Sequence record: MF402939
DNA: 64,000 nt
Reading direction: 5' to 3' (one strand)
Source of the DNA: Escherichia phage OSYSP
Shown here piece after piece: positions 5,628-47,988 of the stretch. The position numbers and the translations under genes are program-made. How positions within the stretch are numbered: position 1 is the first letter of the stretch; every line of letters begins with the position of its first letter. The notes beneath the pieces were generated by a model, which ran no database searches, was not told the origin of the DNA, and was given only the letters and a program-made list of their open reading frames with translations.

Positions 5628-5659
5628 TTTGCTTTCCTTCTCTTCACTTTATAAAATAT

Positions 5660-6431: not shown

Positions 6432-6779
6432 TTAATTTAATAGTAAAGTACGATCTACTTCACCATTAATTGTTCGGCATTCTTCTGGGATTGCCGGTGT
6501 AGTCTTATATTCCCACCATTCAGAACCATCATATTCACCACGTTCTAACCAAGTTCCATCGGTAAACCATACGTTACCATAAAGCAATTGTCCGCCGAAA
6601 CCAGAATCATATTTAAAGTCTAGATTATCTAGAAAATCTTCAATATCTTTTTCTGTATAACCTACGGGTAATACCCAAACTTCTTTATCCCCATAATAAC
6701 CGAATTCTATCTTAATACACTTAACTTCAGAATTAGTATTCTTTAGGGCAAGTAACAATTCTTCTTTAGCATTAATCAT
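6432..6779 (-). CDS. hypothetical protein (115 aa)
   Basis: ORF track; weak SD. Confidence 0.55.
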   Translation of the reverse strand: MINAKEELLLALKNTNSEVKCIKIEFGYYGDKEVWVLPVGYTEKDIEDFLDNLDFKYDSGFGGQLLYGNVWFTDGTWLERGEYDGSEWWEYKTTPAIPEECRTINGEVDRTLLLN

Positions 6780-6805
6780 AGCGTATTTCTCGTGCTAGTT
6801 TAGTT

Positions 6806-6882
6806 TGGCGCGACCGATGGGATTCGAACCCACATTCTCTCCCGTGACAGGGGAGTACCATTACCAAGCCAGCCCCGGTCGC
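6806..6882 (-). tRNA. tRNA-Asp (anticodon GTC)
   Basis: Acceptor GCGACCG/CGGTCGC, anticodon arm CTCCC-CTGTCAC-GGGAG, T-arm GTGGG-TTCGAAT-CCCAT, discriminator G, CCA encoded. Confidence 0.7.
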
Positions 6883-6891
6883 ATAATTCAT

Positions 6892-7077
6892 TTACTCAGC
6901 TTTGAGTTTTTCAATAGCTGCATTAAGTTCCTTAAGAAACTCTTTTCGTACATTAAGACGATTAAGACTTACTAGTATATCATGTTTAAGTTCTTCGATG
7001 TATTTCTTCTCAACTTCAATATTGTTGATAGTGCTATCACGATGAACTTCTAGCTGTGCAATTACATTCTTGGACAT
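6892..7077 (-). CDS. hypothetical protein (61 aa, predicted coiled coil)
   Basis: ORF track; GAGGA SD. Confidence 0.5.
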   Translation of the reverse strand: MSKNVIAQLEVHRDSTINNIEVEKKYIEELKHDILVSLNRLNVRKEFLKELNAAIEKLKAE

Positions 7078-7104
7078 GCTTGTTTCCTCAGTTATTAATG
7101 AAAA

Positions 7105-7177
7105 TGGTATCTGTGGCTGAATTCGATGTCAGCAATGATAGCTGGTTGGCTACCGGTTTACTTAACTCTACACAGAA
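7105..7177 (-). tRNA. tRNA-like element, non-canonical (possible TCA-containing anticodon loop)
   Basis: 3' CACAGAT-A-CCA pairs with 5' TTCTGTG; stem CAGC/GCTG flanks loop TATCATT; D-arm and T-loop are atypical. Confidence 0.3.
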
Positions 7178-7179
7178 TT

Positions 7180-7262
7180 TGGCGGGCCGTGTAGGATTCG
7201 AACCTACGTTGTCTTTCGACATGGATTAACAGTCCACCGCCAAACCGCTTGGCTAACGACCC
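7180..7262 (-). tRNA. tRNA, anticodon GTT (Asn-type anticodon arm) with extended variable hairpin
   Basis: Acceptor GGGTCGT/ACGGCCC, D-arm GCCA-AGCGGTT-TGGC, anticodon arm GTGGA-CTGTTAA-TCCAT, 13-nt variable hairpin GTCGAAAGAC, T-arm GTAGG-TTCGAAT-CCTAC, CCA encoded. Confidence 0.55.
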
Positions 7263-7269
7263 TAAAATT

Positions 7270-7345
7270 TGGACGACCGCATGAGATTTGAACTCACATA
7301 AAAAGGATTTGCAATCCTTCGCCTAAGCCATTCAGCCAACGGTCG
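7270..7345 (-). tRNA. tRNA-Cys (anticodon GCA)
   Basis: Acceptor CGACCGT/GCGGTCG, anticodon arm AAGGA-TTGCAAA-TCCTT, T-arm GTGAG-TTCAAAT-CTCAT, CCA encoded. Confidence 0.65.
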
Positions 7346-7523
7346 ATTTATCTTGTTTTTCGAGATCTTCAAATTCTAAATCATTGAAGTTCCCTAGAGT
7401 ACGTGTATAGAACCCGTCTCCTGAGTCATAGCCTGATTTAGCACAATCACACATTTTAAATTCACGAAGATGTGTGAAGACATGTTCAGAACCACAACAC
7501 TTAAATATAACTAATCGTTTCAT
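7332..7523 (-). CDS. hypothetical Cys-containing protein (63 aa)
   Basis: ORF track; start overlaps stop of upstream ORF; last codons overlap the 5' end of tRNA-Cys. Confidence 0.45.
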   Translation of the reverse strand: MKRLVIFKCCGSEHVFTHLREFKMCDCAKSGYDSGDGFYTRTLGNFNDLEFEDLEKQDKSTVG

Positions 7524-7760
7524 TTACTCTCCAGTAGGATTATCTAAGGTATACTGAGTAGCTACTCCAGCTACATCTAGCAGACTTCCCATATTCCTAA
7601 TAACTCTAGAGATTGCGTCACCTTCGGCAGTTTCTGTAAACACCTTAAGTCTTAAGAAATCGCCACCACCATCCATACCAGAGAAAATATTTAGTAAGCG
7701 AAGCATTACCAACTTACGTTCATTCAATTCTTGTTCTGTCATGTTGCTTCTCCAGTTCAA
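7524..7760 (-). CDS. hypothetical protein (78 aa)
   Basis: ORF track; GGAGA SD. Confidence 0.6.
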   Translation of the reverse strand: MNWRSNMTEQELNERKLVMLRLLNIFSGMDGGGDFLRLKVFTETAEGDAISRVIRNMGSLLDVAGVATQYTLDNPTGE

Positions 7761-7792
7761 TTTATGTAATTATTATATAGAACTTTTGGAAA

Positions 7793-8065
7793 CTAAGCAA
7801 CTACATTTTTTAAGAATTTGATGCCTTTCTTTTTCTTCTTATATTTCCACGTTAATGGATTTTGTCGATTATGAACGCTTGAGATCTTTGTCTCGTCAAA
7901 GTTCTTCAATATCATGTAATCACAGGATAATTGTTCTAGTGGAATGTGATCACCGTCAAAAGCGTATACATAAGGCTGTTGACTAGCACGATAATGATAG
8001 ACTTTGTTAATTCTACGTTTCAGCGACTTATCCGCGCAGTAAATAAAGAAGTTTTCAGGATGCAT
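7793..8065 (-). CDS. hypothetical protein (about 90 aa)
   Basis: ORF track ORF 7793-8080 trimmed to internal ATG (MHPENFF...) that has AGGAG at 6-nt spacing; the first ATG abuts the tRNA 3' end. Confidence 0.5.
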   Translation of the reverse strand: MHPENFFIYCADKSLKRRINKVYHYRASQQPYVYAFDGDHIPLEQLSCDYMILKNFDETKISSVHNRQNPLTWKYKKKKKGIKFLKNVVA

Positions 8066-8082
8066 CAGCATCTCCTTCAATT

Positions 8083-8157
8083 TGGTGCACCCTGTTCGAA
8101 TTGAACGAACCTCTCAAGCTCTTCAGGCAAGCGCTAATCCATCTCAGCTAAAGGTGC
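8083..8157 (-). tRNA. tRNA, probable anticodon GAA (Phe?), weak anticodon stem
   Basis: Acceptor GCACCTT/AGGGTGC, T-arm GTTCG-TTCAATT-CGAAC, loop CTGAAGA at standard positions 32-38 but stem has two T-T mismatches; CCA encoded. Confidence 0.4.
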
Positions 8158-8163
8158 AAATTT

Positions 8164-8234
8164 TGGCAGGGGTAAAGGTATTCGAAACCTTTTCATGGGT
8201 TTTGGAGGCCCATTTGCAACCTATGCGTACCCCA
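8164..8234 (-). tRNA. tRNA-Trp (anticodon CCA), compact D-arm
   Basis: T-arm AAGGT-TTCGAAT-ACCTT, anticodon arm TGGGC-CTCCAAA-ACCCA, 3' TACCCCT-G-CCA; T1-T72 mismatch. Confidence 0.45.
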
Positions 8235-8243
8235 ATTGTTAAT

Positions 8244-8318
8244 TGGCACACCCACGGAGAATTGAACTCCGATTCTCAGATTGAAATCCTGATGTCCTAG
8301 CCATTAGACGATAGGTGC
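8244..8318 (-). tRNA. tRNA-Glu (anticodon TTC)
   Basis: Acceptor GCACCTA/TGGGTGT (G-U pairs), anticodon arm TCAGG-ATTTCAA-TCTGA, T-arm CGGAG-TTCAATT-CTCCG, CCA encoded. Confidence 0.6.
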
Positions 8319-8326
8319 ATTAAATT

Positions 8327-8414
8327 TGGTGGGCGTTAATGGAGTCGAACCACTCGAGTCGCAATGACCAGGGATTTACAATCCCCTCCGCTACCACTTA
8401 CGGAATAAACGCCC
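8327..8414 (-). tRNA. tRNA-Tyr (anticodon GTA), type II
   Basis: Acceptor GGGCGTT/AACGCCC, anticodon arm GGGGA-TTGTAAA-TCCCT, long variable arm, T-arm TGG-TTCGACT-CCA, CCA encoded. Confidence 0.7.
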
Positions 8415-8542
8415 ATATTTAGAAGCATTCAAATACTTGTTTAAACACTTTTAAATATGTTTCCAAATTAGATAACTATTATATCAAGTTTTAAGGCACT
8501 GAGCAAGTCAGATTTTGAAGAACTTGCTCAGTGCTGTATTAG

Positions 8543-8818
8543 TTAGTCGAACTTAGGAGTGACAATTAAAGAGAATGGGAGTTCGAAAACTTCTTCACCC
8601 TCATTACTAACAGTAACTACACGACCTTTAAGTTCAGACATTGAAATATCAATATCAGCTTTTGCATCTGGAGCCATTCCAGCTTCAACACATTTAGCTT
8701 TAACTTCCGGAAGGAGTTCTACATCGTAGAAATAAAGCCATTCAATCTCACCTTCCCAGCCTTCCCAGGATTTACAGATTGCACTTTCAATACCAGTTGC
8801 TATAACACGATTTTGCAT
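8543..8818 (-). CDS. hypothetical protein (91 aa)
   Basis: ORF track; AGGAG SD; followed on minus strand by a 13-bp-stem hairpin (about 8470-8515). Confidence 0.6.
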   Translation of the reverse strand: MQNRVIATGIESAICKSWEGWEGEIEWLYFYDVELLPEVKAKCVEAGMAPDAKADIDISMSELKGRVVTVSNEGEEVFELPFSLIVTPKFD

Positions 8819-8908
8819 TCGTTAACTCCTTCATCAATTTATATAACTATTATATCAGAAATTTAAAGTAAAAGGCAAGTACATTTTTAAAAATTCTGTT
8901 CGGAGGAG

Positions 8909-9115
8909 CTAAACTCCAGATTCTTCGGCCAAGTCTAGACTAATAAGAGTTATAGCCATAATTGCTGCACCGTGTTCTTTTTCTCCGGTGTTTTTAGCAG
9001 AGCCTATAATATCCTTAATCTGTTCGTAATAACTTTTTACTTCTTGTTCAATGCCTGCCTCGGCTATCATGCCTTTAGTCATGAATCGTTGCATGGTAAT
9101 TTCAGGATTAGCCAT
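8909..9115 (-). CDS. hypothetical protein (68 aa)
   Basis: ORF track; ATG overlaps stop of upstream small ORF (ATGGCTAA). Confidence 0.55.
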   Translation of the reverse strand: MANPEITMQRFMTKGMIAEAGIEQEVKSYYEQIKDIIGSAKNTGEKEHGAAIMAITLISLDLAEESGV

Positions 9116-9275
9116 GTTGTTTCTCCAGTTTCATTTTTAATAGTTTACAGATGAAATCAACGTCTTCATCTGTGCCTAAGTCTCTATCTTCAAGGGTCGC
9201 CTTGAAGTTTTTCGTCAATTCCATAAGGATGACTTCCCTAGAACGACGTGTTGGTGGCGGAGGAGGTCTATACAT
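9108..9275 (-). CDS. small proline-rich hypothetical protein (55 aa)
   Basis: Not in ORF track; ATG with AAGGA SD; stop overlaps next start; translation MYRPPPPPTRRSREV... Confidence 0.4.
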   Translation of the reverse strand: MYRPPPPPTRRSREVILMELTKNFKATLEDRDLGTDEDVDFICKLLKMKLEKQHG

Positions 9276-9290
9276 CTTAATTCCTTAATT

Positions 9291-9367
9291 TGGTAGGGGT
9301 GGTGGGATTCGAACCCACAAAACCTGAATTTTAAGTCCAGTACCTATGCCAATTCGATTACACCCCC
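9291..9367 (-). tRNA. tRNA, anticodon TAA (Leu UUA reader?) with short variable arm
   Basis: Acceptor GGGGGTG/CACCCCT, anticodon arm CTGGA-CTTAAAA-TTCAG, T-arm GTGGG-TTCGAAT-CCCAC, discriminator A, CCA encoded; 77 nt. Confidence 0.45.
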
Positions 9368-9474
9368 ATGTAATCAGTTTATTAGTTGATACATATTATA
9401 GCCTAAAGAAAACCCTACTACTAATCCTACGAACCAACCAATATAATAATCTTTTAATTTCACGGGTGTCAACC

Positions 9475-9654
9475 TCATTCAATATCTAGAGAAATACCAC
9501 AGGTAGGATTAATGCCTGTGCCTTTGCACGTAGGACAAACCCAGATATTACAGAATGTATCCCCTGCTTCTGCATCAGAACTTTCTCCAACTCCTAGACA
9601 GTCAGGACAGGCACATTCTTCTAGCTCTTGCTTGAGTTCTTGAAACTTAGACAT
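9475..9654 (-). CDS. small zinc-ribbon protein (59 aa, two CxxC pairs)
   Basis: Not in ORF track; ATG with AAGGA SD; translation MSKFQELKQELEECACPDCLG...CPTCKGTG. Confidence 0.45.
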   Translation of the reverse strand: MSKFQELKQELEECACPDCLGVGESSDAEAGDTFCNIWVCPTCKGTGINPTCGISLDIE

Positions 9655-9663
9655 ATAGTTTCC

Positions 9664-9852
9664 TTATTCAATTACTTTTGAGGCTTCAAGGGAGTCGATA
9701 TAGTGTACGTTTTCTACCATAATCATATAATCTGCCACTTTATCCATAGCCTGAACTTCAGAGGTAGCCCTGGCTAACCTATATCCTTTTTTATATTCAT
9801 CCGGGTATTCCCTATCTGGAATAAACACAACACAAACTAGGTATAGTTCCAC
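9664..9852 (-). CDS. hypothetical protein (62 aa)
   Basis: ORF track. Confidence 0.45.
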   Translation of the reverse strand: MELYLVCVVFIPDREYPDEYKKGYRLARATSEVQAMDKVADYMIMVENVHYIDSLEASKVIE

Positions 9853-9873
9853 TTGTAACCTCTCTAATCAAGA

Positions 9874-9951
9874 TGGTGGCTCCCCGAGGATTCGAACCTA
9901 CGTACCTTCCGGTTATGAGCCGGGTGCTCATACCATATGAGCTTGAGAACC
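9874..9951 (-). tRNA. tRNA, anticodon CAT, initiator-like anticodon arm
   Basis: Acceptor GGTTCTC/GGGAGCC, anticodon arm CCGG-CTCATAA-CCGG followed by GAAGG as in initiator tRNA; T-stem imperfect; CCA encoded. Confidence 0.45.
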
Positions 9952-9957
9952 AGAATT

Positions 9958-10046
9958 TGGCGGAAGAAGTGGGAATCGAACCCACAAGGCTATATTTCAA
10001 ACCGACAGATTAGCAATCTGCTGCAATACCGTTATGCTATTCTTCC
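9958..10046 (-). tRNA. tRNA-Ser (anticodon GCT), type II
   Basis: Acceptor GGAAGAA/TTCTTCC, anticodon arm GCAGA-TTGCTAA-TCTGT, long variable arm, T-arm GTGGG-TTCGATT-CCCAC, CCA encoded. Confidence 0.65.
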
Positions 10047-10067
10047 GAATTTATAAGATATATTATA

Positions 10068-10586
10068 TTAGAAATTTAGCTTCATAGCAAGAAAATTTTT
10101 CAAGTTTTCGGTAGACATCTCATCCACATCTACAGGAGAAACAAATCCATTTAATTGTCTAGCAAATTTTTCACCAGCAGGATCATTATCCCCAACAGCT
10201 ACCAATTTAAAAGGTAGTAATTTCAATTGCTTTAACAACGCTTTTCCTGGAGAAGAACCCAACATTGCCAGGGCTGGATAACCAGCGTTATGTAATGCTA
10301 CTGCCTTAAATACAGATTCAGCAATCAATACTACTTTTTCATCCCCAGTGAGGGTTTCTAGCCCCCATACACACTGTGTAGTAGAATAAGTAAAATATCT
10401 AGCTTCAAAGGGGCACTTACCATGACCTTTTGGAGCAGAAGGATTATACGTCTGATAGCCTCTCAACATCCCAGAGAAGTCATACAATGGGACTGTTAGC
10501 CATCCTTCCGGACTTAACCAGCAATGATACTTATCTGTATCAAACCCTCTAGATAAGAGATGTTCTGTTAGTTCATCAACAGTCAT
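10068..10586 (-). CDS. small Toprim-domain protein (about 172 aa)
   Basis: Start moved to ATG (MTVDEL...) after GAGAGAGG SD, because the first ATG of track ORF 10068-10637 lies inside the promoter; motifs IAESV...GSS...LVAVGDNDPAGEKFA match a Toprim fold. Confidence 0.6.
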   Translation of the reverse strand: MTVDELTEHLLSRGFDTDKYHCWLSPEGWLTVPLYDFSGMLRGYQTYNPSAPKGHGKCPFEARYFTYSTTQCVWGLETLTGDEKVVLIAESVFKAVALHNAGYPALAMLGSSPGKALLKQLKLLPFKLVAVGDNDPAGEKFARQLNGFVSPVDVDEMSTENLKNFLAMKLNF

Positions 10587-10616
10587 ATTAGATTCCTCTC
10601 TCAAATTTATAAATAT

Positions 10617-10645
10617 ATTATACAGAGAATTTAGCATTCAAGCAA
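10617..10645 (-). promoter_or_regulatory. sigma70-type early promoter (TTGCTT-17-TATAAT) with downstream ATAAATTTGAGAGAGG box
   Basis: Consensus hexamers and conserved downstream element on minus strand. Confidence 0.65.
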
Positions 10646-10761
10646 TTGAATTTTTTAACTTTTTAGAGGAAAATCATAGGATGCTTAAGGGTAGCAGGTA
10701 AGTGATCAGGACCGAAATTTGTGACCCCACTAAAAATCTGGGGGCAATTTTTAAAGACCCC

Positions 10762-10790
10762 TTGACATTTTCGCCGGGGTAATGTAAAGT
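10762..10790 (+). promoter_or_regulatory. sigma70-type promoter (TTGACA-17-TAAAGT) for the plus-strand low-complexity cassette
   Basis: Perfect -35 hexamer, 17-nt spacer, 4/6 -10; about 60 nt upstream of AGGAGG-ATG at 10853. Confidence 0.55.
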
Positions 10791-10852
10791 ATATGTTATG
10801 GATGAGTGATCAAAGAGACACACATTTTCTATATACTAGGAGGTGTCAAAAA

Positions 10853-11833
10853 ATGACAGAAGAAGTAGCTAAGAGTCCTGAAACCGTCGCTAGCGTAGCA
10901 GCAGAACTGCATCGTCACGAGGAATCAGATAAGAAAAAGTGGGAGAAAGTCAAAGCCTACGAGGAAAAACATCGTGAACACGATGAAGATGATGAAGAAG
11001 ATGACGATGATGAACATTGTCATAAATATGGAAAACATAAAATGCAAGAACCAGTAAACGTATTTACTAACGGCTTCCCTGGCATGGGTGCATTCCCAGC
11101 TAACGCAAGTGCTTTCGGTGGAGAAGGTATGGGTCTATTCGGAGCTATCCTAATCGGTGCTCTATTAACAGGCGGATTTGGTGGTTTTGGTGGTTTTGGT
11201 CGCGGTGCTGGCGTTGCCGCTGAAGGGACTGCTGTGGACGCGATCCTTTCTAACCAAGATACTGCAAGTATTCTAGCTGCAATCAATACTACTCGTACAG
11301 AAGCTAACCAGGGCACTGGGGCTGTTCTAAGCGCAGTAAACGGTGTGGGAGCTGCTCAAGCTGCTAGCACTCAGCAAGTTCTGACTACTGTCTACGGTAC
11401 AGGTGCTAATCTGTCAAACCAGATCTGTGCTGAAACTCGTAACGTTATTCAGGGTCAGTTCGATCTTTCTCGTCAGATGGATCAATCTTTCGCTGCTAAC
11501 CAGATAGCACGTGCTCAAGATAAGTTTGACTCTGCTCAGATTGCTTTCCAGCAGTCTATTCAGACTAACAACCAGTTCGCCGCTGTTCAGGCTCAGATGT
11601 GTGCTAACCAGAACGCTATCGAACGTCAGCTTGCTGAATGTTGCTGTGAGCTTCAGACTGCGATCGCTGGTGTAACTACTGCGCGTATTCAGGACGAACT
11701 GAATGAATGCCGTCTGCGTGAAGCAATCGCTCAAGGTAGTGGTGCAAATGGTCAGGTAATCAACCAAATCGCTGTAAGTCTTGGTGCTATCACTCAGACT
11801 CTGGCTGGTCTGCAGGCTAAACTGCCGGCTTAA
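10853..11833 (+). CDS. low-complexity protein (326 aa): acidic/His-rich N-terminus, Gly-rich hydrophobic segment, Ala/Gln/Asn-rich C-terminal domain
   Basis: Start set at ATG after AGGAGG (9-nt spacing) rather than track start 10793; segments EDDEEDDDDEHCHKYGKHK, GLFGAILIGALLTGGFGGFGGFGRGAG and CCC triplet; ctg/cgt/gct-biased codons; opposite strand to neighbours. Confidence 0.7.
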   Translation: MTEEVAKSPETVASVAAELHRHEESDKKKWEKVKAYEEKHREHDEDDEEDDDDEHCHKYGKHKMQEPVNVFTNGFPGMGAFPANASAFGGEGMGLFGAILIGALLTGGFGGFGGFGRGAGVAAEGTAVDAILSNQDTASILAAINTTRTEANQGTGAVLSAVNGVGAAQAASTQQVLTTVYGTGANLSNQICAETRNVIQGQFDLSRQMDQSFAANQIARAQDKFDSAQIAFQQSIQTNNQFAAVQAQMCANQNAIERQLAECCCELQTAIAGVTTARIQDELNECRLREAIAQGSGANGQVINQIAVSLGAITQTLAGLQAKLPA

Positions 11834-11854
11834 AATTAAGGGGAGGAGCCCATT

Positions 11855-12271
11855 ATGAGTAAATATGGTTTTGTAAACAACGGATTTAATCAACAAATGG
11901 GCTCCCAGCAGCCCGTTCCGGGTCTGGATAATCCTTACCTACAACAGTTGCAACAGCGTTTAGCAGAAGCTCAACAGATGCAGCAACAACTCCAGCAAAA
12001 CCCTGGAAGTGTGAGTCCTATGCAAATGATGCAGCAAATGAGCGGGCAGTCGCAAATGCCTCAACAAATGCAGCAACAGGTGCCTCAGCAGCAAGTTCAG
12101 CAACAAACCCAACAACCGCAGGTTTCTGCGGAAGGACAGGCAGTACTAGCCCTTTTCGAAGATTTCGCAAAGACAGAGGATGGGAAACAGCTTGTATCAC
12201 TTATGGGTAAGTTTAATAGCTTCTGCCAAAGCCAAGTTGCAAAAGCTCAAAATGGTGATAATAACTCCTAA
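11855..12271 (+). CDS. glutamine-rich low-complexity protein (138 aa)
   Basis: ORF track; AAGGGGAGGAG SD; long Q/M-rich tracts (QQMQQQLQQ...QQMQQQVPQQQVQQQTQQPQ). Confidence 0.65.
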   Translation: MSKYGFVNNGFNQQMGSQQPVPGLDNPYLQQLQQRLAEAQQMQQQLQQNPGSVSPMQMMQQMSGQSQMPQQMQQQVPQQQVQQQTQQPQVSAEGQAVLALFEDFAKTEDGKQLVSLMGKFNSFCQSQVAKAQNGDNNS

Positions 12272-12280
12272 GGAGGAATT

Positions 12281-12475
12281 ATGTGTTGCAGAAAATCTGT
12301 TTCGTGCTGCCCAATGCCTGTAGCACGTTGTTGCTCTCCAGCAATGTTTACACAAATACCGGCGTTCAATCCCTTTGCCTTTAAGCCTATTCTTATCCTG
12401 CCCCCTAGAGTAGATTTTCAGTCAAGATTGGCCTCCCGTATGGGTGGTTGCTGTAACAAGAGTATATGGTTCTAA
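12281..12475 (+). CDS. small cysteine-rich protein (64 aa; CC doublets)
   Basis: ORF track; AAGGAGG SD; MCCRKSVSCCPMPVARCCSP...GGCCNKS; followed by an intrinsic terminator. Confidence 0.55.
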   Translation: MCCRKSVSCCPMPVARCCSPAMFTQIPAFNPFAFKPILILPPRVDFQSRLASRMGGCCNKSIWF

Positions 12476-12490
12476 AGAACCAAACAATAA

Positions 12491-12526
12491 AGCCCCTAGT
12501 CGAAAGACTTAGGGGCTTTTTCTTTT
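12491..12526 (+). terminator. rho-independent terminator ending the plus-strand cassette
   Basis: Hairpin AGCCCCTAG-loop-CTAGGGGCT followed by a T-run. Confidence 0.7.
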
Positions 12527-12536
12527 GCCTTAAATA

Positions 12537-12571
12537 CAGAAAAGCCCGCGCTCTCGGAGAAAACGCGGGCT
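12537..12571 (-). terminator. rho-independent terminator after the SPFH gene
   Basis: Hairpin GCCCGCG-loop-CGCGGGC followed by TTTT on minus strand; convergent with the previous terminator. Confidence 0.6.
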
Positions 12572-12595
12572 TAGTTCGAAGATTACGTGTAACTA

Positions 12596-13543
12596 TTACT
12601 TGTTACGCATATCCATGATCATTTGACCATCATAGCCAGTGCCAACTACAGTCTGAGGTACACCACCTTGATATTTCTGAGCACGAATCATCTCAACTTC
12701 CAGTTGTTTCCAACGAATCATCTCAGGAGTAATGGTACGTTGCAGTGCGGCGTTAGCTTCAGCTTCTTTCTTAGCTGCGTACAGTTTAGCATCTGCGTCA
12801 CGTTCATTAGCAATAGCTTGGTTATTGCGAGCTTCACGATCTGCTTCTGCTTGTTTAACTTTTTGCTGTGCTTCCTGTTCAACGCGGGCAAGTTCAGCTT
12901 TCGCAGCGTTAACTTGCTCTTCACGAACTTTGGTATTCTGTACCTGTTCCATGATTACCGGTGGCAAAGTAATATCTTGAAGAAACACCTGCTTAACTGT
13001 GTAACCATATGGGCGTGCATACTCTTCAACTTCCTGTTGAATTGCAGTTTGCAATTGAGCCTGAATTTTAGCATCAAACAAATCTTGTGCTTTAGGTACA
13101 GACTTACCAAACTCACAAATAGTAGATAGTAATTTTTCAGTTACATATTTGTCTAACGCTTGATCCTGAGTACCTGCATTAATACGGTTAATCGGTGCCT
13201 TAGAACCATCAAACTGCAACATAACAGTCAGATCAACAGTGGATTTAAACTTATCCTGACTAGGAACCTGAAGTTTATCTAATTTTACAGCAATATCTTT
13301 TGTACTAAAAGTATCGAAAGATGCAAACGGGTTTACAATATGGAAACCAGGTAATACTGGATTAGGGTCTACTTTACCCAGGAATGTTTGAGTTTTAACC
13401 GTACCATCAGAAACAATAGTATATGAATTAAAAGCTAGGATTAAACCTGCTAAACCAACTACAGCACCAATACCCCAACGTTTAATAGTGCGAATTACTT
13501 TTTGCTCAGAAGTCAGTTCTTTCATATTTTTAGTATTAAACAT
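12596..13543 (-). CDS. SPFH/band-7 (HflK/HflC-like) membrane protein
   Basis: 315 aa; N-terminal hydrophobic helix (IGAVVGLAGLILAF), then SPFH-like core and long Ala/Glu/Gln-rich coiled coil; AAGGA SD. Confidence 0.6.
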   Translation of the reverse strand: MFNTKNMKELTSEQKVIRTIKRWGIGAVVGLAGLILAFNSYTIVSDGTVKTQTFLGKVDPNPVLPGFHIVNPFASFDTFSTKDIAVKLDKLQVPSQDKFKSTVDLTVMLQFDGSKAPINRINAGTQDQALDKYVTEKLLSTICEFGKSVPKAQDLFDAKIQAQLQTAIQQEVEEYARPYGYTVKQVFLQDITLPPVIMEQVQNTKVREEQVNAAKAELARVEQEAQQKVKQAEADREARNNQAIANERDADAKLYAAKKEAEANAALQRTITPEMIRWKQLEVEMIRAQKYQGGVPQTVVGTGYDGQMIMDMRNK

Positions 13544-13580
13544 ATATTTCCTTTGTTTTAGTTACAGTTAATAAAATTGA

Positions 13581-13652
13581 CCGAGGTGACAGGATTCGAA
13601 CCTGCATAAAGGAATTTAGAAGACTCCTGCCTCTCCCTTAGACTACACCCCG
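13581..13652 (-). tRNA. tRNA-Arg (anticodon TCT), CCA not encoded
   Basis: Acceptor CGGGGTG/CACCTCG, anticodon arm GGAGT-CTTCTAA-ATTCC, T-arm GCAGG-TTCGAAT-CCTGT. Confidence 0.55.
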
Positions 13653-14152
13653 TTTAAGTATTTTTAAGAACTCTCGTAAAAACTCTTAAAAATACAGACG
13701 ATACCGGGAGAGTCATAAGTCTCACTCATTAAGTATTTCAAGACAAAATACAGTAACGTCTATTATTTTCCAGTTTAAGTCAGGGTGACTTAGTGGTTAT
13801 GTCCTGCGGTATATTGAGGACTCGGTTAGGCTTGGGGTCATGACTTCCCGCCTTTTGCTGCTACTCAACAGGAGTTATCGCGAATTACCTGTGCTATTGT
13901 GCACCATTAGTGACATCTCTCATGTCAGCATTTCCCACTTTGTGGATAGCTTGAAAAACTACTCCGATATGGAGAAAGAACTTCACTATCCTAGAATACC
14001 TTCTAAAGTTCTTCTTTAGCCTGGACATAGTTAAATCGTAATAAAACTATTCAGCAGACTGGTTGGTTAGTCTGGAACCAACTACCGCGTGGTTTAGGCA
14101 GTGCGCAACTAACCTCGGAAGCTTTTACGTTAAAAGCATCAGTTATCCAGTT

Positions 14153-14230
14153 CTTACCGACCGTAGGATTCGAACCTACATCTTCCACCAGTTACGGCTT
14201 GATAATACCAATTATACTAGGACGGCAGTG
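14153..14230 (-). tRNA. tRNA-like element, non-canonical (no foldable anticodon stem)
   Basis: T-arm GTAGG-TTCGAAT-CCTAC, D-loop-like AATTGGTA, acceptor GCCGTCC/GGTCGGT with one mismatch; no anticodon arm can be formed. Confidence 0.3.
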
Positions 14231-37748: not shown

Positions 37749-38057
37749 ATGAGCGAACAGGTAAATCAAAACTATGAAGGACACGTTGATGACCAGTCCA
37801 TCATACTTTGGGAGAAGGAGGGGGAACAAGTAAGATTAACAGTATCTGAATTTCGTGGGAATCTATACATGGGTATTCGTTACTGGCTTCTTGATATTAA
37901 TGATGAGTGGTTTCCAACGAAATCTGGCTTCTCTTTTCCTTACACCCTAGAAACAACATCACAGCTTTTCTATGCGTTTACACAGATTCTTAGCGAATCT
38001 GAGGTTTTACATGAAGTACAGAAACGAGCTGAAGAACTCAAAGCCAAGAATGCCTAG
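37749..38057 (+). CDS. hypothetical protein (102 aa)
   Basis: ORF track; followed by terminator. Confidence 0.6.
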   Translation: MSEQVNQNYEGHVDDQSIILWEKEGEQVRLTVSEFRGNLYMGIRYWLLDINDEWFPTKSGFSFPYTLETTSQLFYAFTQILSESEVLHEVQKRAEELKAKNA

Positions 38058-38073
38058 TTCTTGGCTTTTTCTT
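38042..38073 (+). terminator. rho-independent terminator
   Basis: 9-bp stem AGCCAAGAA/TTCTTGGCT plus TTTTTCTTT. Confidence 0.65.
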
Positions 38074-38084
38074 TATAAATGTAT

Positions 38085-38113
38085 TTGCTTTCAACTCAGT
38101 TTTGTTATATAAT
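38085..38113 (+). promoter_or_regulatory. sigma70 promoter (TTGCTT-17-TATAAT)
   Basis: Consensus hexamers. Confidence 0.65.
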
Positions 38114-38144
38114 ATTTATATAAATTAATGAGAGATATAAATAA

Positions 38145-39116
38145 ATGACTAATGTAAAAGAATTTATTAAACGCTGTCAAGAAGCATATTATCAAGGCAT
38201 GTCTTTAATCTCTGATGAGGAGTATGATCGCCTGGTAAAACGCTTCCCGTTAGAGGAAGAGATCGGGCCTAAGGGTGATATTCCACATCTATATCGTATG
38301 TATTCTTTACAGAAAGTTTACTATAACCGTGGAGATAAACCACCATTCAATCCTTTAGGTCAGGTGGAAACCGATAAGTTAGATGGTTGTGCAATTTCTC
38401 TGCTATATATTAATGGCGAATTTGTTCAAGCACTAACTCGTGGTAATGGTATTCTGGGGAATGATGTCACAAGCAACGTAAGATTGCTGAACATTCCTAA
38501 AAAGATTTCCCAAAAAGTACCTACTCAAATCACTGGTGAAGTTCTAATTACAAAAGAAGTAGAAAATAAACGTAACTTTGCCTCTGGTGCTATTAACCTC
38601 AAAGATAGCGATGCTTTCGTACAACGCATTGGAGAAGGCGGTTTAATCTTTGTTGCTTATGGTATCCAGTGTTCTGCTGAATCTGTAGGTATTACAGAAG
38701 CATATTTAAAAGATATGCTTTGGCTAGAGAATGAGAACTTCTTAACAGTCGTTAATGTGCGTTCCTTTTTTAAATGGATTCCGACGGACGGTAAAGTTGT
38801 TCGTATTAATGACAACAACAAATTCTTCCGCGAAGGCTGGACTAATAAATTCCCTCGTGGAGCATTCGCTATTAAAGAGGATGAAGAAGGCGAGATTACA
38901 ACTCTTACTAAAGTTGAATGGCAGGTAGGGGCTTCTGGTAAAGTAACTCCAGTTGGTTATTTCGAACCGGTAATTATTGATGATGCTACGATTGTTAAAG
39001 CGACTCTTAATAACGTTGATTATATTAACTCTCTCGATCTAGAGATCGGTTGCCAGATTCGAGTGATTCGTGCTGGTGGTGTAATCCCGTGCATAGTAGA
39101 GCGAGTATATGATTAA
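38145..39116 (+). CDS. NAD-dependent DNA ligase, N-terminal adenylation/OB-fold part (split ligase subunit A)
   Basis: 323 aa; adenylation-lysine motif KLDGCA and LigA-like N-terminal pattern; ends before Zn-finger/HhH/BRCT modules. Confidence 0.7.
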   Translation: MTNVKEFIKRCQEAYYQGMSLISDEEYDRLVKRFPLEEEIGPKGDIPHLYRMYSLQKVYYNRGDKPPFNPLGQVETDKLDGCAISLLYINGEFVQALTRGNGILGNDVTSNVRLLNIPKKISQKVPTQITGEVLITKEVENKRNFASGAINLKDSDAFVQRIGEGGLIFVAYGIQCSAESVGITEAYLKDMLWLENENFLTVVNVRSFFKWIPTDGKVVRINDNNKFFREGWTNKFPRGAFAIKEDEEGEITTLTKVEWQVGASGKVTPVGYFEPVIIDDATIVKATLNNVDYINSLDLEIGCQIRVIRAGGVIPCIVERVYD

Positions 39117-39166
39117 TACATAACCCTTTGCTACCCATCTACCATATCGGAATTATAAAGTGGTTA

Positions 39167-39195
39167 TTGACATTTTCGCCGCTTAGGTATATACT
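39167..39195 (+). promoter_or_regulatory. sigma70 promoter (TTGACA-17-TATACT) between ligase parts
   Basis: Hexamers read directly. Confidence 0.55.
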
Positions 39196-39259
39196 ATTAT
39201 CATTCAGTTGAGGGATAGAAAGTTATGGCGAGGGTAAGCAAAGTTAGTTAAAATTGTAG

Positions 39260-39289
39260 TTGCTAAATGCTTAAATACTTGCTATAATA
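39260..39289 (+). promoter_or_regulatory. sigma70 promoter (TTGCTA-18-TATAAT) between ligase parts
   Basis: Consensus hexamers. Confidence 0.6.
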
Positions 39290-39318
39290 TTTATATAAAT
39301 TGATAAGGAAGAAATTTG

Positions 39319-40095
39319 ATGAAAATCGAAATTCCAACACAATGTCCCTCTTGTGGTTCTAAGCTAGATCTTGTCAACGGACAATTATTCTGTCGTAATA
39401 AGTCCAACTGTCCAGCGCAATCAAGTAAGTTAATTGAGAACTTCTGTACAAAAATGAAGTTAAAGGGCTTTGGCCCGAAAACTATTGAAAAGCTGGAGCT
39501 GACTAAGATTTCAGAACTATTTTACCTAACCGAAGAAGATTTGGTTAGAGCCGTGGGTAGCAAGGTTGCCGCTAAGTTAATTAGCGAATTAAATACTAAA
39601 GTTCGTGGAGACATTGACTTTGGTTCAGTTCTCGGTTCTTTAGGAATCCCTCTAATTGGAGAGGTTGCAGCAAAGAAATTGTCCCAAAATTGCACCAGTT
39701 TTCAAGATGTGAGAGCTGATGGCAAAGCTGGAGAAAACTATAAAGCCTGGCTAAATTCCCCACAAGGCAAGGATGTTATCGAATTACCGTGGAAATTCTC
39801 AAATGGTATTAAGGGTGCTAAAGCTGACATCATTACTGATGGTCTAGTAGCCCAACCAAACGGAATAACGGTGTGTATTACCGGATCTTTGCAAGATTTT
39901 GCAAATCGAACGGATGCAACAAACTATTTAGAAGGTCTAGGATACACGGTTAAGAAATCCGTTACCAAAGACGTCAAATACCTAATCTGTGAGGATGAAT
40001 CGAAGCGTTCTTCCTCATCTTATAAGAAAGCCGAAACGAATGGGATAGAAATCCTGTCGATTAAAGAACTATTGGAGAAAAATAATAATGTCTAA
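39319..40095 (+). CDS. NAD-dependent DNA ligase, C-terminal part (Zn-finger, HhH, BRCT-like; split ligase subunit B)
   Basis: Start at ATG after AAGGAAG; N-terminal CPSCGS...C..KSNCP zinc finger as found after the OB-fold in LigA. Confidence 0.65.
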   Translation: MKIEIPTQCPSCGSKLDLVNGQLFCRNKSNCPAQSSKLIENFCTKMKLKGFGPKTIEKLELTKISELFYLTEEDLVRAVGSKVAAKLISELNTKVRGDIDFGSVLGSLGIPLIGEVAAKKLSQNCTSFQDVRADGKAGENYKAWLNSPQGKDVIELPWKFSNGIKGAKADIITDGLVAQPNGITVCITGSLQDFANRTDATNYLEGLGYTVKKSVTKDVKYLICEDESKRSSSSYKKAETNGIEILSIKELLEKNNNV

Positions 40096-40855
40096 ACTGA
40101 ACTGGAACGTAGAAGGTGTAACCGAGTCTCTGAAAGCAAAAGCCACTGCTCTGGGTGTTGCTGTAATCTCTCAAGAACAAGTAGCTGCTATCGCTGCTGA
40201 ACTGGCTGCTGAAACTGGCAAAGACGTTACCGCTCGCTCTGTTGGCTCTAAGCTGCGTAAAGAAGGTTTCGAAGTACAGAAAGCTAACGAAGTACAGAAA
40301 TCTCCGTGGACTCCTGAGCAGGAAGCTGAACTGGTTGATTTCCTGAACGCTCATGCTGGTCAGTATACCTATGCTGAAATCGCTGCTGCTGTAGCTGGTG
40401 GTCAATTTGGTGCTAGGCAGGTACAGGGTAAGATCCTGAGTCTGGAAATGACCGCTTCTGTTAAACCAACTGAAAAAGCAGCTGCTGTTCGTTCCTTCAC
40501 TCCTGATGAAGAAACTGATTTTGTTAATCAGGTTGTTGCTGGTGCTACTATTGAAGCTATCGCTGCTCACTTCGGTCGTAATATCAAGCAGATCCGTGGT
40601 AAAGCTCTGAGCCTGCTTCGTGAAGGTCGTATCGCTGCTATGCCGGTACAGGAAACTTCAAGTGCTAAAACTCGTGAAGATCTGCTAGAAGGTCTGGATC
40701 TGGTTAACATGACCGTTGCTGAGATCGCTGAGAAAACTGGTAAGTCTGAGCGTGGTGTTAAATCTATGTTGTCTCGTCGTGGTCTGGTTGCTAAGGACTA
40801 TGATGGTGCCGCTAAGCGTGCTAAACTGGATGCAAAAGCTGCGGCTGCTGAATAA
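40088..40855 (+). CDS. hypothetical protein (255 aa) with three internal HTH-like repeats
   Basis: ORF track; GGAGAAAAA SD; repeated segments (EIAAAV..., IEAIAAHFGRNIKQIRGKALSLLREGRI, VAEIAEKTGKSERGVKSMLSRRGLV); strongly biased codon usage. Confidence 0.7.
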   Translation: MSKLNWNVEGVTESLKAKATALGVAVISQEQVAAIAAELAAETGKDVTARSVGSKLRKEGFEVQKANEVQKSPWTPEQEAELVDFLNAHAGQYTYAEIAAAVAGGQFGARQVQGKILSLEMTASVKPTEKAAAVRSFTPDEETDFVNQVVAGATIEAIAAHFGRNIKQIRGKALSLLREGRIAAMPVQETSSAKTREDLLEGLDLVNMTVAEIAEKTGKSERGVKSMLSRRGLVAKDYDGAAKRAKLDAKAAAAE

Positions 40856-46417: not shown

Positions 46418-47766
46418 AGGTTGTTATATCTAATAAAGCCTATTTCAAGCCCGATGATGAACTTTGGGATTATTGTAGTAAGCAAACCACTTATCACATA
46501 GAGACAATGACTAGTAAATACCCTATTATGTATAAGAATAGTGGTGTTGTTGCCAAAGAGATTAAGTGGATTCCTATTACGCGTCTGGACTTACTAGATG
46601 CTAAAGGAGTAAAATACGAATTAGTCGATAAACGTACATTAGCTCCGGTAGACATACCAAAACCTAAGTTCAAATTGCGCGAAGAAGATCAACTTCCAAT
46701 ATACGAAGAGTGCGATGATACCTGTATTATTAATGGTAAGCCTGGATTTGGTAAAACTATCCTAGCCCTTGCACTTGCGTATAAATTTGGTCAGAAAACT
46801 TTGGTAATCTGTACGAATACATCCATTCGTGAAATGTGGGCGGCAGAAGTTCGTAAATGGTTTGGGTTTGAACCAGGCATCATAGGTTCTGGGAAATACA
46901 ATATTGATCCACCAATTGTAGTCAGTAATATTCAAACAGTGAATAAACACGCGAATAATCTTTCTAAAGTATTCGGTACTGTTATAGTTGATGAAGTTCA
47001 CCATTGTGTGGCTACAACTTTCACTAACTTCCTAGAAATATCATGTGCTCGCTATAAAATTGGACTATCCGGTACACTAAAACGAAAAGATGGTTTACAA
47101 GTTATGTTCAAAGATTTCTTTGGATATAAGATATTTAGCCCGCCGGTTAATAATACTGTTGCACCTACAATCCATAGGTACTCCGTGCCTGTTGAGCTAT
47201 CAGGAAACCAAAACGTGCCGTGGGCATTACGTGCTAACGATGTGTATAATCATCCTGAATATCGAGAGACTATTATAAACCTAGCACATTTATATGTGAA
47301 TATGGGACATAAAGTACTCATTGTAAGTGATAGAACAGAGTTAATCCAAACAGTACTAGAAGCACTATCTCAGAGAGGAGTCACAACCTATGAGATTATT
47401 GGCGCAACTCACTTAGATGACCGATTAAAAATTCAGGAAGATATAGCAAAAGGTGGGCCTTGTGTGCTTGCAGCAGCTCAAAGTATCTTCTCTGAGGGTA
47501 TTTCCCTTAATGAGCTATCTTGTTTAATAATGGGAAGCCTTATTAATAATGAATCTCTCATTGAACAGCTTGCAGGCCGTGTTCAACGTATTGTCGATGG
47601 TAAACTCGACCCTATTGTTGTAGATCTAATTATGAAAGGTGGCACTGGACTAAGACAGGCTTCTGGACGTATGGCAGTATATCGTAACAACGGGTGGAAA
47701 ACTATTACTATGACTCCGGAGAAAGCAGTTCAATTAGCTAAAATTGCATTTGGCAACAGCTCATAA
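46414..47766 (+). CDS. SF2 (SNF2/DEAD-like) helicase
   Basis: 450 aa; Walker A GKPGFGKT, Walker B VDEVHH, C-terminal helicase motifs; ATGA overlap. Confidence 0.8.
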   Translation: MKVVISNKAYFKPDDELWDYCSKQTTYHIETMTSKYPIMYKNSGVVAKEIKWIPITRLDLLDAKGVKYELVDKRTLAPVDIPKPKFKLREEDQLPIYEECDDTCIINGKPGFGKTILALALAYKFGQKTLVICTNTSIREMWAAEVRKWFGFEPGIIGSGKYNIDPPIVVSNIQTVNKHANNLSKVFGTVIVDEVHHCVATTFTNFLEISCARYKIGLSGTLKRKDGLQVMFKDFFGYKIFSPPVNNTVAPTIHRYSVPVELSGNQNVPWALRANDVYNHPEYRETIINLAHLYVNMGHKVLIVSDRTELIQTVLEALSQRGVTTYEIIGATHLDDRLKIQEDIAKGGPCVLAAAQSIFSEGISLNELSCLIMGSLINNESLIEQLAGRVQRIVDGKLDPIVVDLIMKGGTGLRQASGRMAVYRNNGWKTITMTPEKAVQLAKIAFGNSS

Positions 47767-47778
47767 ATGATGTATAAT
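47749..47778 (+). promoter_or_regulatory. sigma70 promoter (TTGGCA-18-TATAAT)
   Basis: Hexamers at end of helicase gene; downstream ATAAATTTGAGAGAGAG box. Confidence 0.5.
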
Positions 47779-47851
47779 ATATACATAAATTTGAGAGAGA
47801 GAAAGTTTCGGATTGATAAGAAAGTCCGAAGCAGAAAAATAAAAATTTTAG

Positions 47852-47881
47852 TTGCTAAATTCTCTCGAAATCTAGTATAAT
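47852..47881 (+). promoter_or_regulatory. sigma70 promoter (TTGCTA-18-TATAAT)
   Basis: Consensus hexamers; downstream ATAAATTCGAGGAG box. Confidence 0.6.
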
Positions 47882-47988
47882 ATATACATAAATTCGAGGA
47901 GAAAACAAAAATTAAATTCTTCGATTATGAAAAGCTATACTTACTAGCTAGAGGAAATTCCGACCTAATTATTAAGCTATTCAAAAGA

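What the first reader, a model, noticed from the sequence alone, without database searches (positions are those of the whole stretch)
38145..40095. NAD-dependent DNA ligase split into two genes separated by 200 bp containing two promoters
The adenylation/OB-fold part (38145-39116) and the Zn-finger/HhH/BRCT part (39319-40095) are separate ORFs. The spacer carries two sigma70 promoters, so the second part can be transcribed independently. Split ligases are known in T5-like phages; the internal promoters imply differential expression of the two halves.
Basis: partly seen in the sequence, partly recalled or inferred. Interest (0 to 1): 0.35.

Follow-up and report, generated by a model that had tools for sequence, protein, structure and literature searches.

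The report
Phage T5 two-gene DNA ligase
This is the well-known two-gene (ligA/ligB) NAD-dependent DNA ligase of bacteriophage T5 and its relatives, with the two already catalogued T5 early promoters between the genes, so the finding is correct but ordinary.

Summary
The window is a T5-like phage, 98% identical to T5 here.

- ORF 38145-39116 (323 aa) carries LigA domain Ia, the adenylation domain (KLDG, K78) and the OB fold.
- ORF 39319-40095 (258 aa; some records use TTG 39316) carries the four-cysteine zinc finger, HhH and BRCT.
- Together they tile a full-length phage LigA profile, with only about 6 linker positions missing.
- The 202-bp spacer has stops in all frames. It holds no intron, no homing-endonuclease ORF and no predicted terminator.
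- The spacer holds two strong sigma-70 promoters. T5 GenBank records annotate these as P-K28b and P-K28a.

The split was reported with the T5 genome (Wang 2005, cited in PMC1684257). A homologous two-chain ligase from a Providencia T5-like phage is in the PDB (9hu3/9i5i).

What I add:
- The split, and a tandem promoter pair just upstream of ligB, are present in nine phages from across Demerecviridae. Every sampled non-Demerecviridae phage LigA is one piece.
- The spacer is at least as conserved as the coding DNA.
- ligB overlaps D5, so the promoters feed ligB plus the downstream replication genes.

"Differential expression" of the two halves is plausible but untested. Novelty: already known. 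Interest: low.

The parts
38040..38068 (+). Terminator-like hairpin followed by a T-run. It ends the upstream transcription unit, just before the ligA promoter.
   Evidence: 12-bp stem, T-rich tail. The equivalent site is annotated as a putative rho-independent terminator in T5 AY587007.
38085..38113 (+). ligA promoter: TTGCTT-17-TATAAT (T5P35, 'repeat b copy 4'). Its -10 and downstream 19-mer are identical to those of the proximal ligB promoter.
   Evidence: Sequence. The 19-mer match at 38108 is and the -35 position. Annotated as a promoter in both T5 records. The generic scan missed it because its -35 matches only 3 of 6 bases.
38145..39116 (+). ligA: ligase subunit A (323 aa). It has the domain Ia motif (AYYQGMSLISDEEYDRL), a nucleotidyltransferase domain with KLDG (K78), and the OB fold.
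   Evidence: PHROG 3359 matches at E 4.8e-176. It covers positions 9-381 of the full-length LigA profile PHROG 3869.
39117..39318 (+). Non-coding 202-bp spacer (31% GC). It has stops in all three frames, reads the same as the T5 spacer, and is 99.5-100% conserved among the Tequintavirus relatives compared.
   Evidence: No Rfam match. No predicted terminator.
39167..39195 (+). Distal promoter, equal to T5 P-K28b (T5P36): TTGACA-17-TATACT. It is followed by a TTGAGGGA box and an 8-codon mini-ORF (39225-39251) that is not conserved in other genera.
39260..39288 (+). Proximal promoter, equal to T5 P-K28a (T5P37, 'repeat b copy 5'): TTGCTA-17-TGcTATAAT. Its -10 ends 30 nt before the ligB ATG.
39319..40095 (+). 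ligB: ligase subunit B (258 aa from ATG 39319; T5 records use TTG 39316). It has a zinc finger (Cys 9, 12, 25, 31), an HhH region and BRCT. The Shine-Dalgarno sequence AAGGAAG lies at 39305.
   Evidence: PHROG 3498 matches at E 1.4e-136. It covers positions 388-654 of PHROG 3869.
40088..40855 (+). D5 DNA-binding protein gene. Its ATG overlaps the end of ligB by 8 nt, so the two are co-transcribed and probably translationally coupled.

Best explanation
[quoted passage not shown] Subunit B (LigB: zinc finger, HhH, BRCT) supplies the DNA-binding clamp half that a one-piece LigA carries at its C-terminus. The two polypeptides associate non-covalently to seal nicks during phage replication.

The genes are adjacent on one strand. 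ligA has its own early promoter. With no terminator after ligA, its transcripts should run into ligB. The two strong host-sigma-70 early promoters in the spacer (P-K28b, P-K28a) start further transcripts that cover ligB, D5, the DnaB-like helicase D6, hegJ and the primase.

What is shown: gene structure, domain content, the position of the break, promoter sequence identity with annotated T5 promoters, family-wide conservation, and the existence of a solved two-chain homologue.

What is inferred: subunit association and catalytic division of labour in this particular phage, read-through from ligA, and a higher mRNA dose for ligB than for ligA.
For: - Identity with T5: 98.0% to T5 over 38000-40200, where the record annotates ligA, ligB and three promoters. 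The spacer reads the same as that of T5.
- Domains: adenylation domain and OB fold in A; BRCT and HhH in B. K78 lies in KLDG, and B has four zinc-finger cysteines.
- Tiling: A covers positions 9-381 and B covers 388-654 of the full-length phage LigA profile PHROG 3869. A residues 214-320 align to E. coli LigA (2owo) 284-390, and B residues 3-123 align to 402-530. The alignment with the unsplit 657-aa LigA of jumbo phage N1M2 shows the same junction.
- Solved homologue: PDB 9hu3/9i5i hold 'DNA ligase (NAD(+))' together with 'DNA ligase subunit B' in the same entry (E 1.9e-103 and 1.3e-79). Chain B is 100% identical to ligB of Providencia phage PSTCR5.
- Need for subunit B: a LigA-type enzyme truncated after the OB fold self-adenylates but cannot ligate (LigN-deltaC, PMC1684257). 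That paper also names the T5 split ligase as a known discovery.
- Family pattern: among the records listed, every Demerecviridae hit comes as two pieces and every non-Demerecviridae phage LigA hit as one piece. The split was seen directly in Aeromonas, Vibrio, Providencia, Klebsiella and Pantoea phages.
- Promoters: the tandem pair is conserved in position in nine phages of the family. The spacer is at least as conserved as the coding DNA.
- Operon context: no terminator in the spacer. ligB overlaps D5. The T5 record shows no annotated terminator until after D11.
Against: - No experiment on this phage's enzyme or its transcripts is available here.
- No paper describing 9hu3/9i5i was found in the library. 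Whether that structure shows a functional complex on DNA is therefore not known to me.
- The generic promoter scan is not enriched over shuffles for the region as a whole.
- The experimental status of P-K28a/b rests on the GenBank annotation names and on my recollection of the Bujard laboratory's T5 promoter work. I could not retrieve that work.
Confidence: 0.93

Rival explanations
1. The split is an artefact or a pseudogene. On this reading, a sequencing frameshift or a recent disruptive insertion broke a single ligA gene and at least one half is non-functional.
For: Two adjacent ORFs that together make one protein are the classic signature of a frameshift error or of a disrupted gene.
Against: - The spacer is 202 bp with stops in all frames and encodes no LigA-like residues.
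- The same two-gene layout occurs in more than 1000 phage records, including family members whose subunits are only about 42-54% identical to the window's.
- Both halves keep their catalytic and structural residues.
- Both have their own Shine-Dalgarno sequence and start codon.
- A homologous pair has been solved as two separate chains in one PDB entry.
Confidence: 0.01
2. The gap is the scar of a mobile element. On this reading, a group I intron or a free-standing homing-endonuclease gene once interrupted a single ligA gene, and the present spacer is its remnant.
For: T5 carries several HNH endonuclease genes in the same early region (hegI, hegJ). In some relatives the gap holds one to three extra small ORFs, so the site does accept insertions.
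Against: - The spacer has no Rfam intron match.
- The spacer has no + strand ORF of 30 aa or more.
- None of the nine gap ORFs examined has a nuclease domain. The only recognisable ones are DprA-like.
- The gap ORFs of different genera are mostly unrelated to one another, which fits later accessory-gene insertions, not one founding element.
- The spacer is fully accounted for by two promoter cassettes of the standard T5 early type.
Confidence: 0.04
3. The promoters exist to set unequal doses of the two halves. On this reading, LigB (zinc finger, HhH, BRCT) is made in excess because it has a job of its own, for example nick binding or protein recruitment through BRCT, apart from completing the ligase.
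For: ligB lies downstream of three promoters and ligA downstream of one, with no terminator between them. The tandem pair always sits directly before ligB, whatever lies upstream.
Against: The same promoters also serve D5, helicase and primase. D5 is described in the T5 record as a DNA-binding protein required for replication and late transcription. That need explains strong promoters at this spot without invoking LigB. No data on protein levels or on a LigB-only activity are available.
Confidence: 0.15

Closest known systems
Bacteriophage T5 ligA (T5.116) / ligB (T5.117) with promoters P-K28b and P-K28a (GenBank AY543070, AY587007, AY692264)
   Same: Same gene order and ORF lengths (972 and 780 nt), a spacer that reads the same as T5's, 98% nucleotide identity over the region, the same three promoters, and the same overlap of ligB with D5.
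   Different: Only about 2% nucleotide differences in the coding parts. The window comes from a close T5 relative and is not the T5 reference itself.
Two-chain NAD+ DNA ligase of a Providencia T5-like phage (Priunavirus), PDB 9hu3 / 9i5i
   Same: Same two-subunit architecture and the same break point. About 53-54% identity for each subunit. The source phage has the same tandem promoters in its 192-bp gap.
   Different: Different genus. Its subunit A is slightly longer (333 aa in PSTCR5; the PDB chain is 339 residues) and its subunit B shorter (248 aa in the PDB chain). I found no publication describing it.
One-piece bacterial and phage LigA (E. coli LigA, PDB 2owo; jumbo phage N1M2 LigA, 657 aa; PHROG 3869)
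   Same: Same domain order: Ia, NTase, OB, zinc finger, HhH, BRCT. Same KxDG lysine and four zinc-finger cysteines.
   Different: These are single polypeptides. Relative to N1M2 LigA, the T5-type A subunit lacks about 30 residues between domain Ia and the NTase core and a further stretch of about 14. The OB/zinc-finger linker is replaced by a stop codon, 202 bp of promoter DNA and a new start codon.
T5 early promoter family (P-N25, P-N26, P-K28a/b, P31A/B)
   Same: Near-consensus -35 and -10 hexamers, AT-rich surroundings, and a conserved stretch after the -10 with a TTGA-purine box. Tandem pairs also occur at P31A/B, at 47773 and 47876 in this window.
   Different: Nothing distinguishes the two spacer promoters from other members of the family. 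That the downstream box belongs to the published T5 promoter consensus is my recollection and was not checked in a paper here.

Membership tests
NAD+-dependent DNA ligase (LigA) | Nucleotidyltransferase (adenylation) domain with the motif I lysine KxDG | tested here: met
   Pfam DNA_ligase_aden at E 1.3e-23. KLDG with K78.
NAD+-dependent DNA ligase (LigA) | N-terminal domain Ia (NAD+ specificity; YY...SDxEYD motif) | tested here: met
   AYYQGMSLISDEEYDRL at residues 14-30. It aligns with the N-terminus of the phage LigA profile PHROG 3869 from position 9 and with N1M2 LigA. NAD+ use itself was not tested.
NAD+-dependent DNA ligase (LigA) | OB-fold domain after the NTase domain | tested here: met
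   Pfam DNA_ligase_OB at E 3.3e-22, residues 252-321. Aligns to 2owo 284-390.
NAD+-dependent DNA ligase (LigA) | Four-cysteine zinc finger, HhH domain and BRCT domain | tested here: met
   Cys 9, 12, 25 and 31 of ORF2. BRCT at E 1.6e-8; the HHH_2 match (25.1 bits) is just below its cutoff of 27. Aligns to 2owo 402-530 and to 1dgs 400-653.
NAD+-dependent DNA ligase (LigA) | All domains on a single polypeptide | tested here: not met
   Two ORFs in different frames, separated by 202 bp with stops in every frame.
T5-type split ligase (Demerecviridae LigA + LigB; PHROG 3359 + PHROG 3498) | Two adjacent same-strand genes with the break between the OB fold and the zinc finger | tested here: met
   PHROG 3359 at E 4.8e-176 and PHROG 3498 at E 1.4e-136. 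Tiling of PHROG 3869 at positions 381/388. The same break is seen in the eight relatives from other genera that were inspected.
T5-type split ligase (Demerecviridae LigA + LigB; PHROG 3359 + PHROG 3498) | Synteny: ligB immediately followed by the D5 DNA-binding protein gene and the replicative helicase gene | tested here: met
   D5 begins at 40088 and overlaps ligB; a 507-aa ORF, D6 in T5, begins at 40887.
T5-type split ligase (Demerecviridae LigA + LigB; PHROG 3359 + PHROG 3498) | The two polypeptides form an active heterodimeric ligase | not testable with these tools
   Indirect only. The homologous pair was deposited as chains A and B of one PDB entry. A LigA-type enzyme lacking the C-terminal half adenylates itself but does not ligate.
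T5 early (host sigma-70) promoters | Near-consensus -35 and -10 hexamers with 17-bp spacing | tested here: met
   TTGACA-17-TATACT (11/12) and TTGCTA-17-TATAAT (10/12, with TG extension).
T5 early (host sigma-70) promoters | Correspondence to catalogued T5 promoters | tested here: met
   The spacer reads the same as that of T5. The sites fall within the features 'promoter P-K 28b' and 'P-K 28a' and T5P36/T5P37.
T5 early (host sigma-70) promoters | Transcription initiation in vivo or in vitro at these sites | not testable with these tools
   The original promoter-mapping papers could not be retrieved. This rests on the annotation names and on my recollection.

The most novel reading that the evidence does not exclude
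The split is not a neutral accident. It is kept because a strong tandem promoter must sit exactly at this point to launch the ligB-D5-helicase-primase block, and/or because LigB is needed in excess of LigA for a ligase-independent role such as nick binding or BRCT-mediated recruitment. The evidence does not exclude this: the promoter pair is fixed in position directly before ligB in nine phages from across the family, even where other genes separate ligA from ligB, and the non-coding spacer is at least as conserved as the coding DNA.
Probability: 0.12. Interest if true: 0.4.

Novelty: already known. Interest (0 to 1): 0.08.

Why it matters
It matters little beyond correct annotation. The split ligase has been in the T5 genome records since 2004-2005, is carried by hundreds of sequenced T5-like phages, and has a solved homologue.

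The only modest added value is comparative. The break and the promoter pair before ligB go back to the common ancestor of the sampled Demerecviridae. The ligA-ligB gap also serves as an insertion site for small accessory genes in the Vibrio and Pantoea members. That makes the locus a tidy natural example of a multidomain enzyme kept as two genes with a transcription start between them. It does not open a new question.

Tried and rejected
1. Frameshift fusion: rejected. The spacer has stops in all frames, the ORFs are in different frames, and 202 bp separate them.
2. Intron or structured RNA in the spacer: Rfam in E-value mode over 38000-39450 gave only a meaningless miRNA hit at the upstream terminator hairpin.
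3. Fold of the P-K28b leader: the transcript 39203-39318 folds unusually well (z = -4.07). The equivalent leaders of Providencia, Aeromonas, Klebsiella and Vibrio phages do not (z = -0.6 to -2.6) and adopt different folds. I do not claim a conserved RNA element.
4. Homing-endonuclease remnant: the gap ORFs of relatives have no nuclease domains and are mostly unrelated to one another.
5. Insertions inside the spacer: megablast matches that came in two pieces suggested this, but the extra DNA proved to be small ORFs upstream of ligA, not in the spacer.
6. A decayed gene behind the distal promoter: its Shine-Dalgarno-like TTGAGGGA box and the 8-codon mini-ORF (39225-39251) suggested this. The mini-ORF is not conserved in other genera. 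The same box follows other ORF-less T5 early promoters such as P31A. I therefore read it as part of the promoter cassette.
7. Literature: searches for the PDB codes, for 'split DNA ligase' and for P-K28 found no paper on the structure or on promoter mapping.
8. Searches deliberately not run: I did not run the large protein-database searches, because the answer would not change the verdict.

Full report
**What is there**

The region holds two + strand ORFs. The first is 38145-39116 (323 aa). The second is 39316/39319-40095 (259 aa from TTG, 258 aa from the adjacent ATG). They are separated by 202 bp. The ORFs are in different frames, and the spacer has stop codons in all three forward frames, so no single sequencing error could join them. 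The spacer is 31% G+C against 39% for the flanking genes and for the window as a whole.

**Domain content**

- Pfam finds the NAD-dependent ligase adenylation domain (E 1.3e-23) and the ligase OB fold (E 3.3e-22) in the first ORF.
- Pfam finds BRCT (E 1.6e-8) and weaker helix-hairpin-helix matches in the second ORF.
- The first ORF has the domain Ia motif AYYQGMSLISDEEYDRL and the adenylation motif KLDG with K78.
- The second ORF starts with a four-cysteine zinc finger, Cys 9, 12, 25 and 31.
- Against PHROGs, the two proteins belong to separate families, 3359 and 3498. They also tile the full-length phage LigA profile 3869: positions 9-381 for the first and 388-654 for the second.
- Against solved structures, residues 214-320 of the first align with E. 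coli LigA (2owo) 284-390. Residues 3-123 of the second align with 2owo 402-530.
- An alignment with the unsplit 657-aa LigA of jumbo phage N1M2 shows the same junction.

The break therefore lies in the short linker between the OB fold and the zinc finger, and no domain is missing.

**Identity of the locus**

Megablast of 38000-40200 against phage genomes gives 444 records. The best is bacteriophage T5 at 98.0% over the full length. [quoted passage not shown] The spacer carries the features 'promoter P-K 28b' and 'promoter P-K 28a', and a third promoter lies just before ligA.

Record AY587007 calls the same three sites T5P35, T5P36 and T5P37. It also marks a 25-bp 'repeat b' in the ligA promoter and in the proximal ligB promoter. 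The window's spacer reads the same as that of T5.

[quoted passage not shown] A 2013 paper lists ligA and ligB as the two subunits (PMC3632103). The finding is therefore already known.

**The promoters**

The generic scan finds TTGACA-17-TATACT at 39167-39195 (11 of 12) and TTGCTA-17-TATAAT with a TG extension at 39260-39288 (10 of 12). The overall number of promoter-like sites in the region is no higher than in shuffled sequence, 6 against 6.6. The case for the promoters therefore rests on other evidence:

- They coincide with the annotated T5 promoters.
- The 19-nt stretch starting at the -10 of the proximal promoter recurs 16 times in the window with at most three mismatches, against 0.13 expected. 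The matches lie on the - strand in the first 18 kb and on the + strand after 29 kb, which I read as following the local direction of transcription.
- Their positions are conserved across the family (see below).

No terminator-like site lies in the spacer, so transcripts from the ligA promoter should continue into ligB. ligB's last codons overlap the ATG of D5 at 40088. In the T5 record no terminator is annotated from there until after D11, and the next promoter lies before the polymerase gene. The two spacer promoters thus feed ligB, D5, the DnaB-like helicase D6, hegJ and the primase.

**Family-wide comparison (new here, but modest)**

A tblastn search with the concatenated subunits finds 1250 phage records. 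In the sampled rows, every Demerecviridae hit (47-99% identity) comes as two or more pieces. Every hit from outside the family that spans both halves of the query (23-30% identity: jumbo phages, a cyanophage, Ralstonia phages and others) comes as one piece.

I inspected the split directly in these phages:

| Phage | What lies between ligA and ligB |
|---|---|
| Aeromonas AhSzw-1 | 178 bp, non-coding |
| Providencia PSTCR5 | 192 bp, non-coding |
| Klebsiella K7_rec12 | 199 bp, non-coding |
| Pantoea AAS21 | one ORF |
| Vibrio 70E35.2 | one ORF |
| Vibrio PG07 | two ORFs |
| Vibrio JSF12 | two ORFs |
| Vibrio Direpillow8 | three ORFs |

The inserted ORFs carry no nuclease domain. The only recognisable ones are DprA-like. 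They are mostly unrelated between genera, and in AAS21 the DprA-like gene sits upstream of ligA instead of in the gap.

In all nine phages, the 170 bp before ligB hold the same arrangement:

- A distal TTGAC(A/G/C)-17-TATA(A/C)T promoter, with its -10 ending 112-126 nt before the ATG.
- A proximal TTGCnn-17-TGnTATA(A/C)T promoter, with its -10 ending 27-30 nt before the ATG. AAS21 is the exception at 14 nt, probably because its annotated ligB start is too early.

Among the Tequintavirus relatives compared, the spacer is 99.5-100% identical to the window, while the coding parts are 96-98% identical. Against Klebsiella phage K7 the figures are 71% for the spacer and 68-69% for the coding parts. 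The split and the promoter pair therefore date to the common ancestor of the sampled family and are under selection.

**How it most likely works**

By homology with LigA, subunit A binds NAD+ through domain Ia and forms the lysyl-AMP intermediate on K78. Subunit B brings the zinc finger, HhH and BRCT modules that let a one-piece LigA encircle nicked DNA.

A LigA-type enzyme truncated after the OB fold self-adenylates as well as the full-length protein but cannot ligate (PMC1684257). Subunit B should therefore be required for nick sealing.

PDB entries 9hu3 and 9i5i contain 'DNA ligase (NAD(+))' and 'DNA ligase subunit B' as separate chains. Chain B is 100% identical to ligB of Providencia phage PSTCR5. 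That indicates a T5-family pair has been produced and solved together. I found no paper describing it.

Subunit association, read-through from ligA and a higher ligB mRNA dose are inferences for this phage.

**Rivals**

- A sequencing artefact or pseudogene is excluded by the family-wide conservation of both ORFs.
- An intron or homing-endonuclease scar has no support: no Rfam match, no + strand ORF of 30 aa or more in the spacer, and no nuclease in any gap ORF examined.
- The idea that the promoters serve to make LigB in excess for a role of its own cannot be excluded. It is less economical than the need to drive D5 and the replication genes downstream.

**Things that led nowhere**

- The transcript from the distal promoter folds well in this phage (z = -4.07), but the fold is not shared by other genera.
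- The Shine-Dalgarno-like box TTGAGGGA after the distal -10, and the 8-codon mini-ORF at 39225-39251, looked like the remains of a gene. However, the box is present with no conserved ORF in all nine phages. It also follows P31A at 47773. I recall, from memory and unchecked here, that a TTGA box near +7 belongs to the published T5 early promoter consensus.

**Verdict**

The feature is already known and annotated, so interest is low.

Noticed in passing
window 47720-47900 (+): A second tandem pair of T5-type early promoters lies about 100 bp apart. The 19-mer TATAATATATACATAAATT occurs at 47773 and 47876. Each copy is followed by a TTGAGAGAG or TTCGAGGAG box, and the next long ORF starts only at 47989. 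The pair corresponds to the annotated T5 promoters P31A and P31B.
   Followed up: partly
window 39203-39318 (+): The leader RNA that the distal promoter (P-K28b) would produce folds into a long hairpin spanning the proximal promoter. Its minimum free energy is -26.1 kcal/mol, z = -4.07, and 0 of 200 shuffles fold as well. The equivalent leaders in Providencia, Aeromonas, Klebsiella and Vibrio relatives do not share this fold (z = -0.6 to -2.6). Its significance is unknown.
   Followed up: partly
window 39196-39251; L007, L008, L009, L010, L011, L013, L014, L015 upstream of ligB: A G-rich, Shine-Dalgarno-like box sits 11-20 nt after the distal -10 in all nine phages examined. Examples are TTGAGGGA, TTTGGGGA, TTTGGAGA and GTTAGGGA. 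No conserved ORF follows it. In this window an 8-codon mini-ORF (MARVSKVS) lies at 39225-39251. It is probably part of the T5-type promoter cassette and not a gene remnant.
   Followed up: partly
window 900-14226 (-): A cluster of 22 tRNA genes, all on the minus strand. This is the T5 tRNA region.
   Followed up: no
L009 1071-1903; L014 1269-2487; L008 1551-1847; L015 1337-1783; L013 1259-1585: In Vibrio and Pantoea members of the family, the ligA-ligB gap has taken up one to three small accessory genes. These include a DprA-like gene in JSF12 and Direpillow8. In Pantoea AAS21 the DprA-like gene sits upstream of ligA instead. The tandem promoters always stay next to ligB.
   Followed up: yes
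L009 1071-1292; L008 1551-1847; L015 2061; L013 1734; window 39316 vs 39319: Several public annotations look wrong or inconsistent:
- JSF12 gp143 (73 aa) is named 'DNA ligase' but has no ligase domain.
- The 70E35.2 gap ORF is named 'hydroxymethylglutaryl-CoA reductase' with no Pfam support.
- PG07 ligB is annotated 126 nt too short; the homology starts at 1935.
- The annotated AAS21 ligB start lies only 14 nt after the -10.
- T5 records start ligB at TTG, while other records use the adjacent ATG.
   Followed up: partly
L016 (OR847187.1, 'Listeria phage LM 4-11-1', 4772-bp contig): A contig deposited as an UNVERIFIED_ORG Listeria phage encodes ligA and ligB at 98.8% amino-acid identity to this window. 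It is almost certainly a T5-like coliphage or Salmonella phage contig that has been mislabelled.
   Followed up: no
L003 445-918; L004 444-644; L005 444-632; L006 359-717: Some Tequintavirus relatives carry one or two extra small ORFs (62-90 aa) between the PC4-like gene and ligA, at a position where this window and T5 have only the ligA promoter. This is a second variable spot next to the ligase genes.
   Followed up: partly
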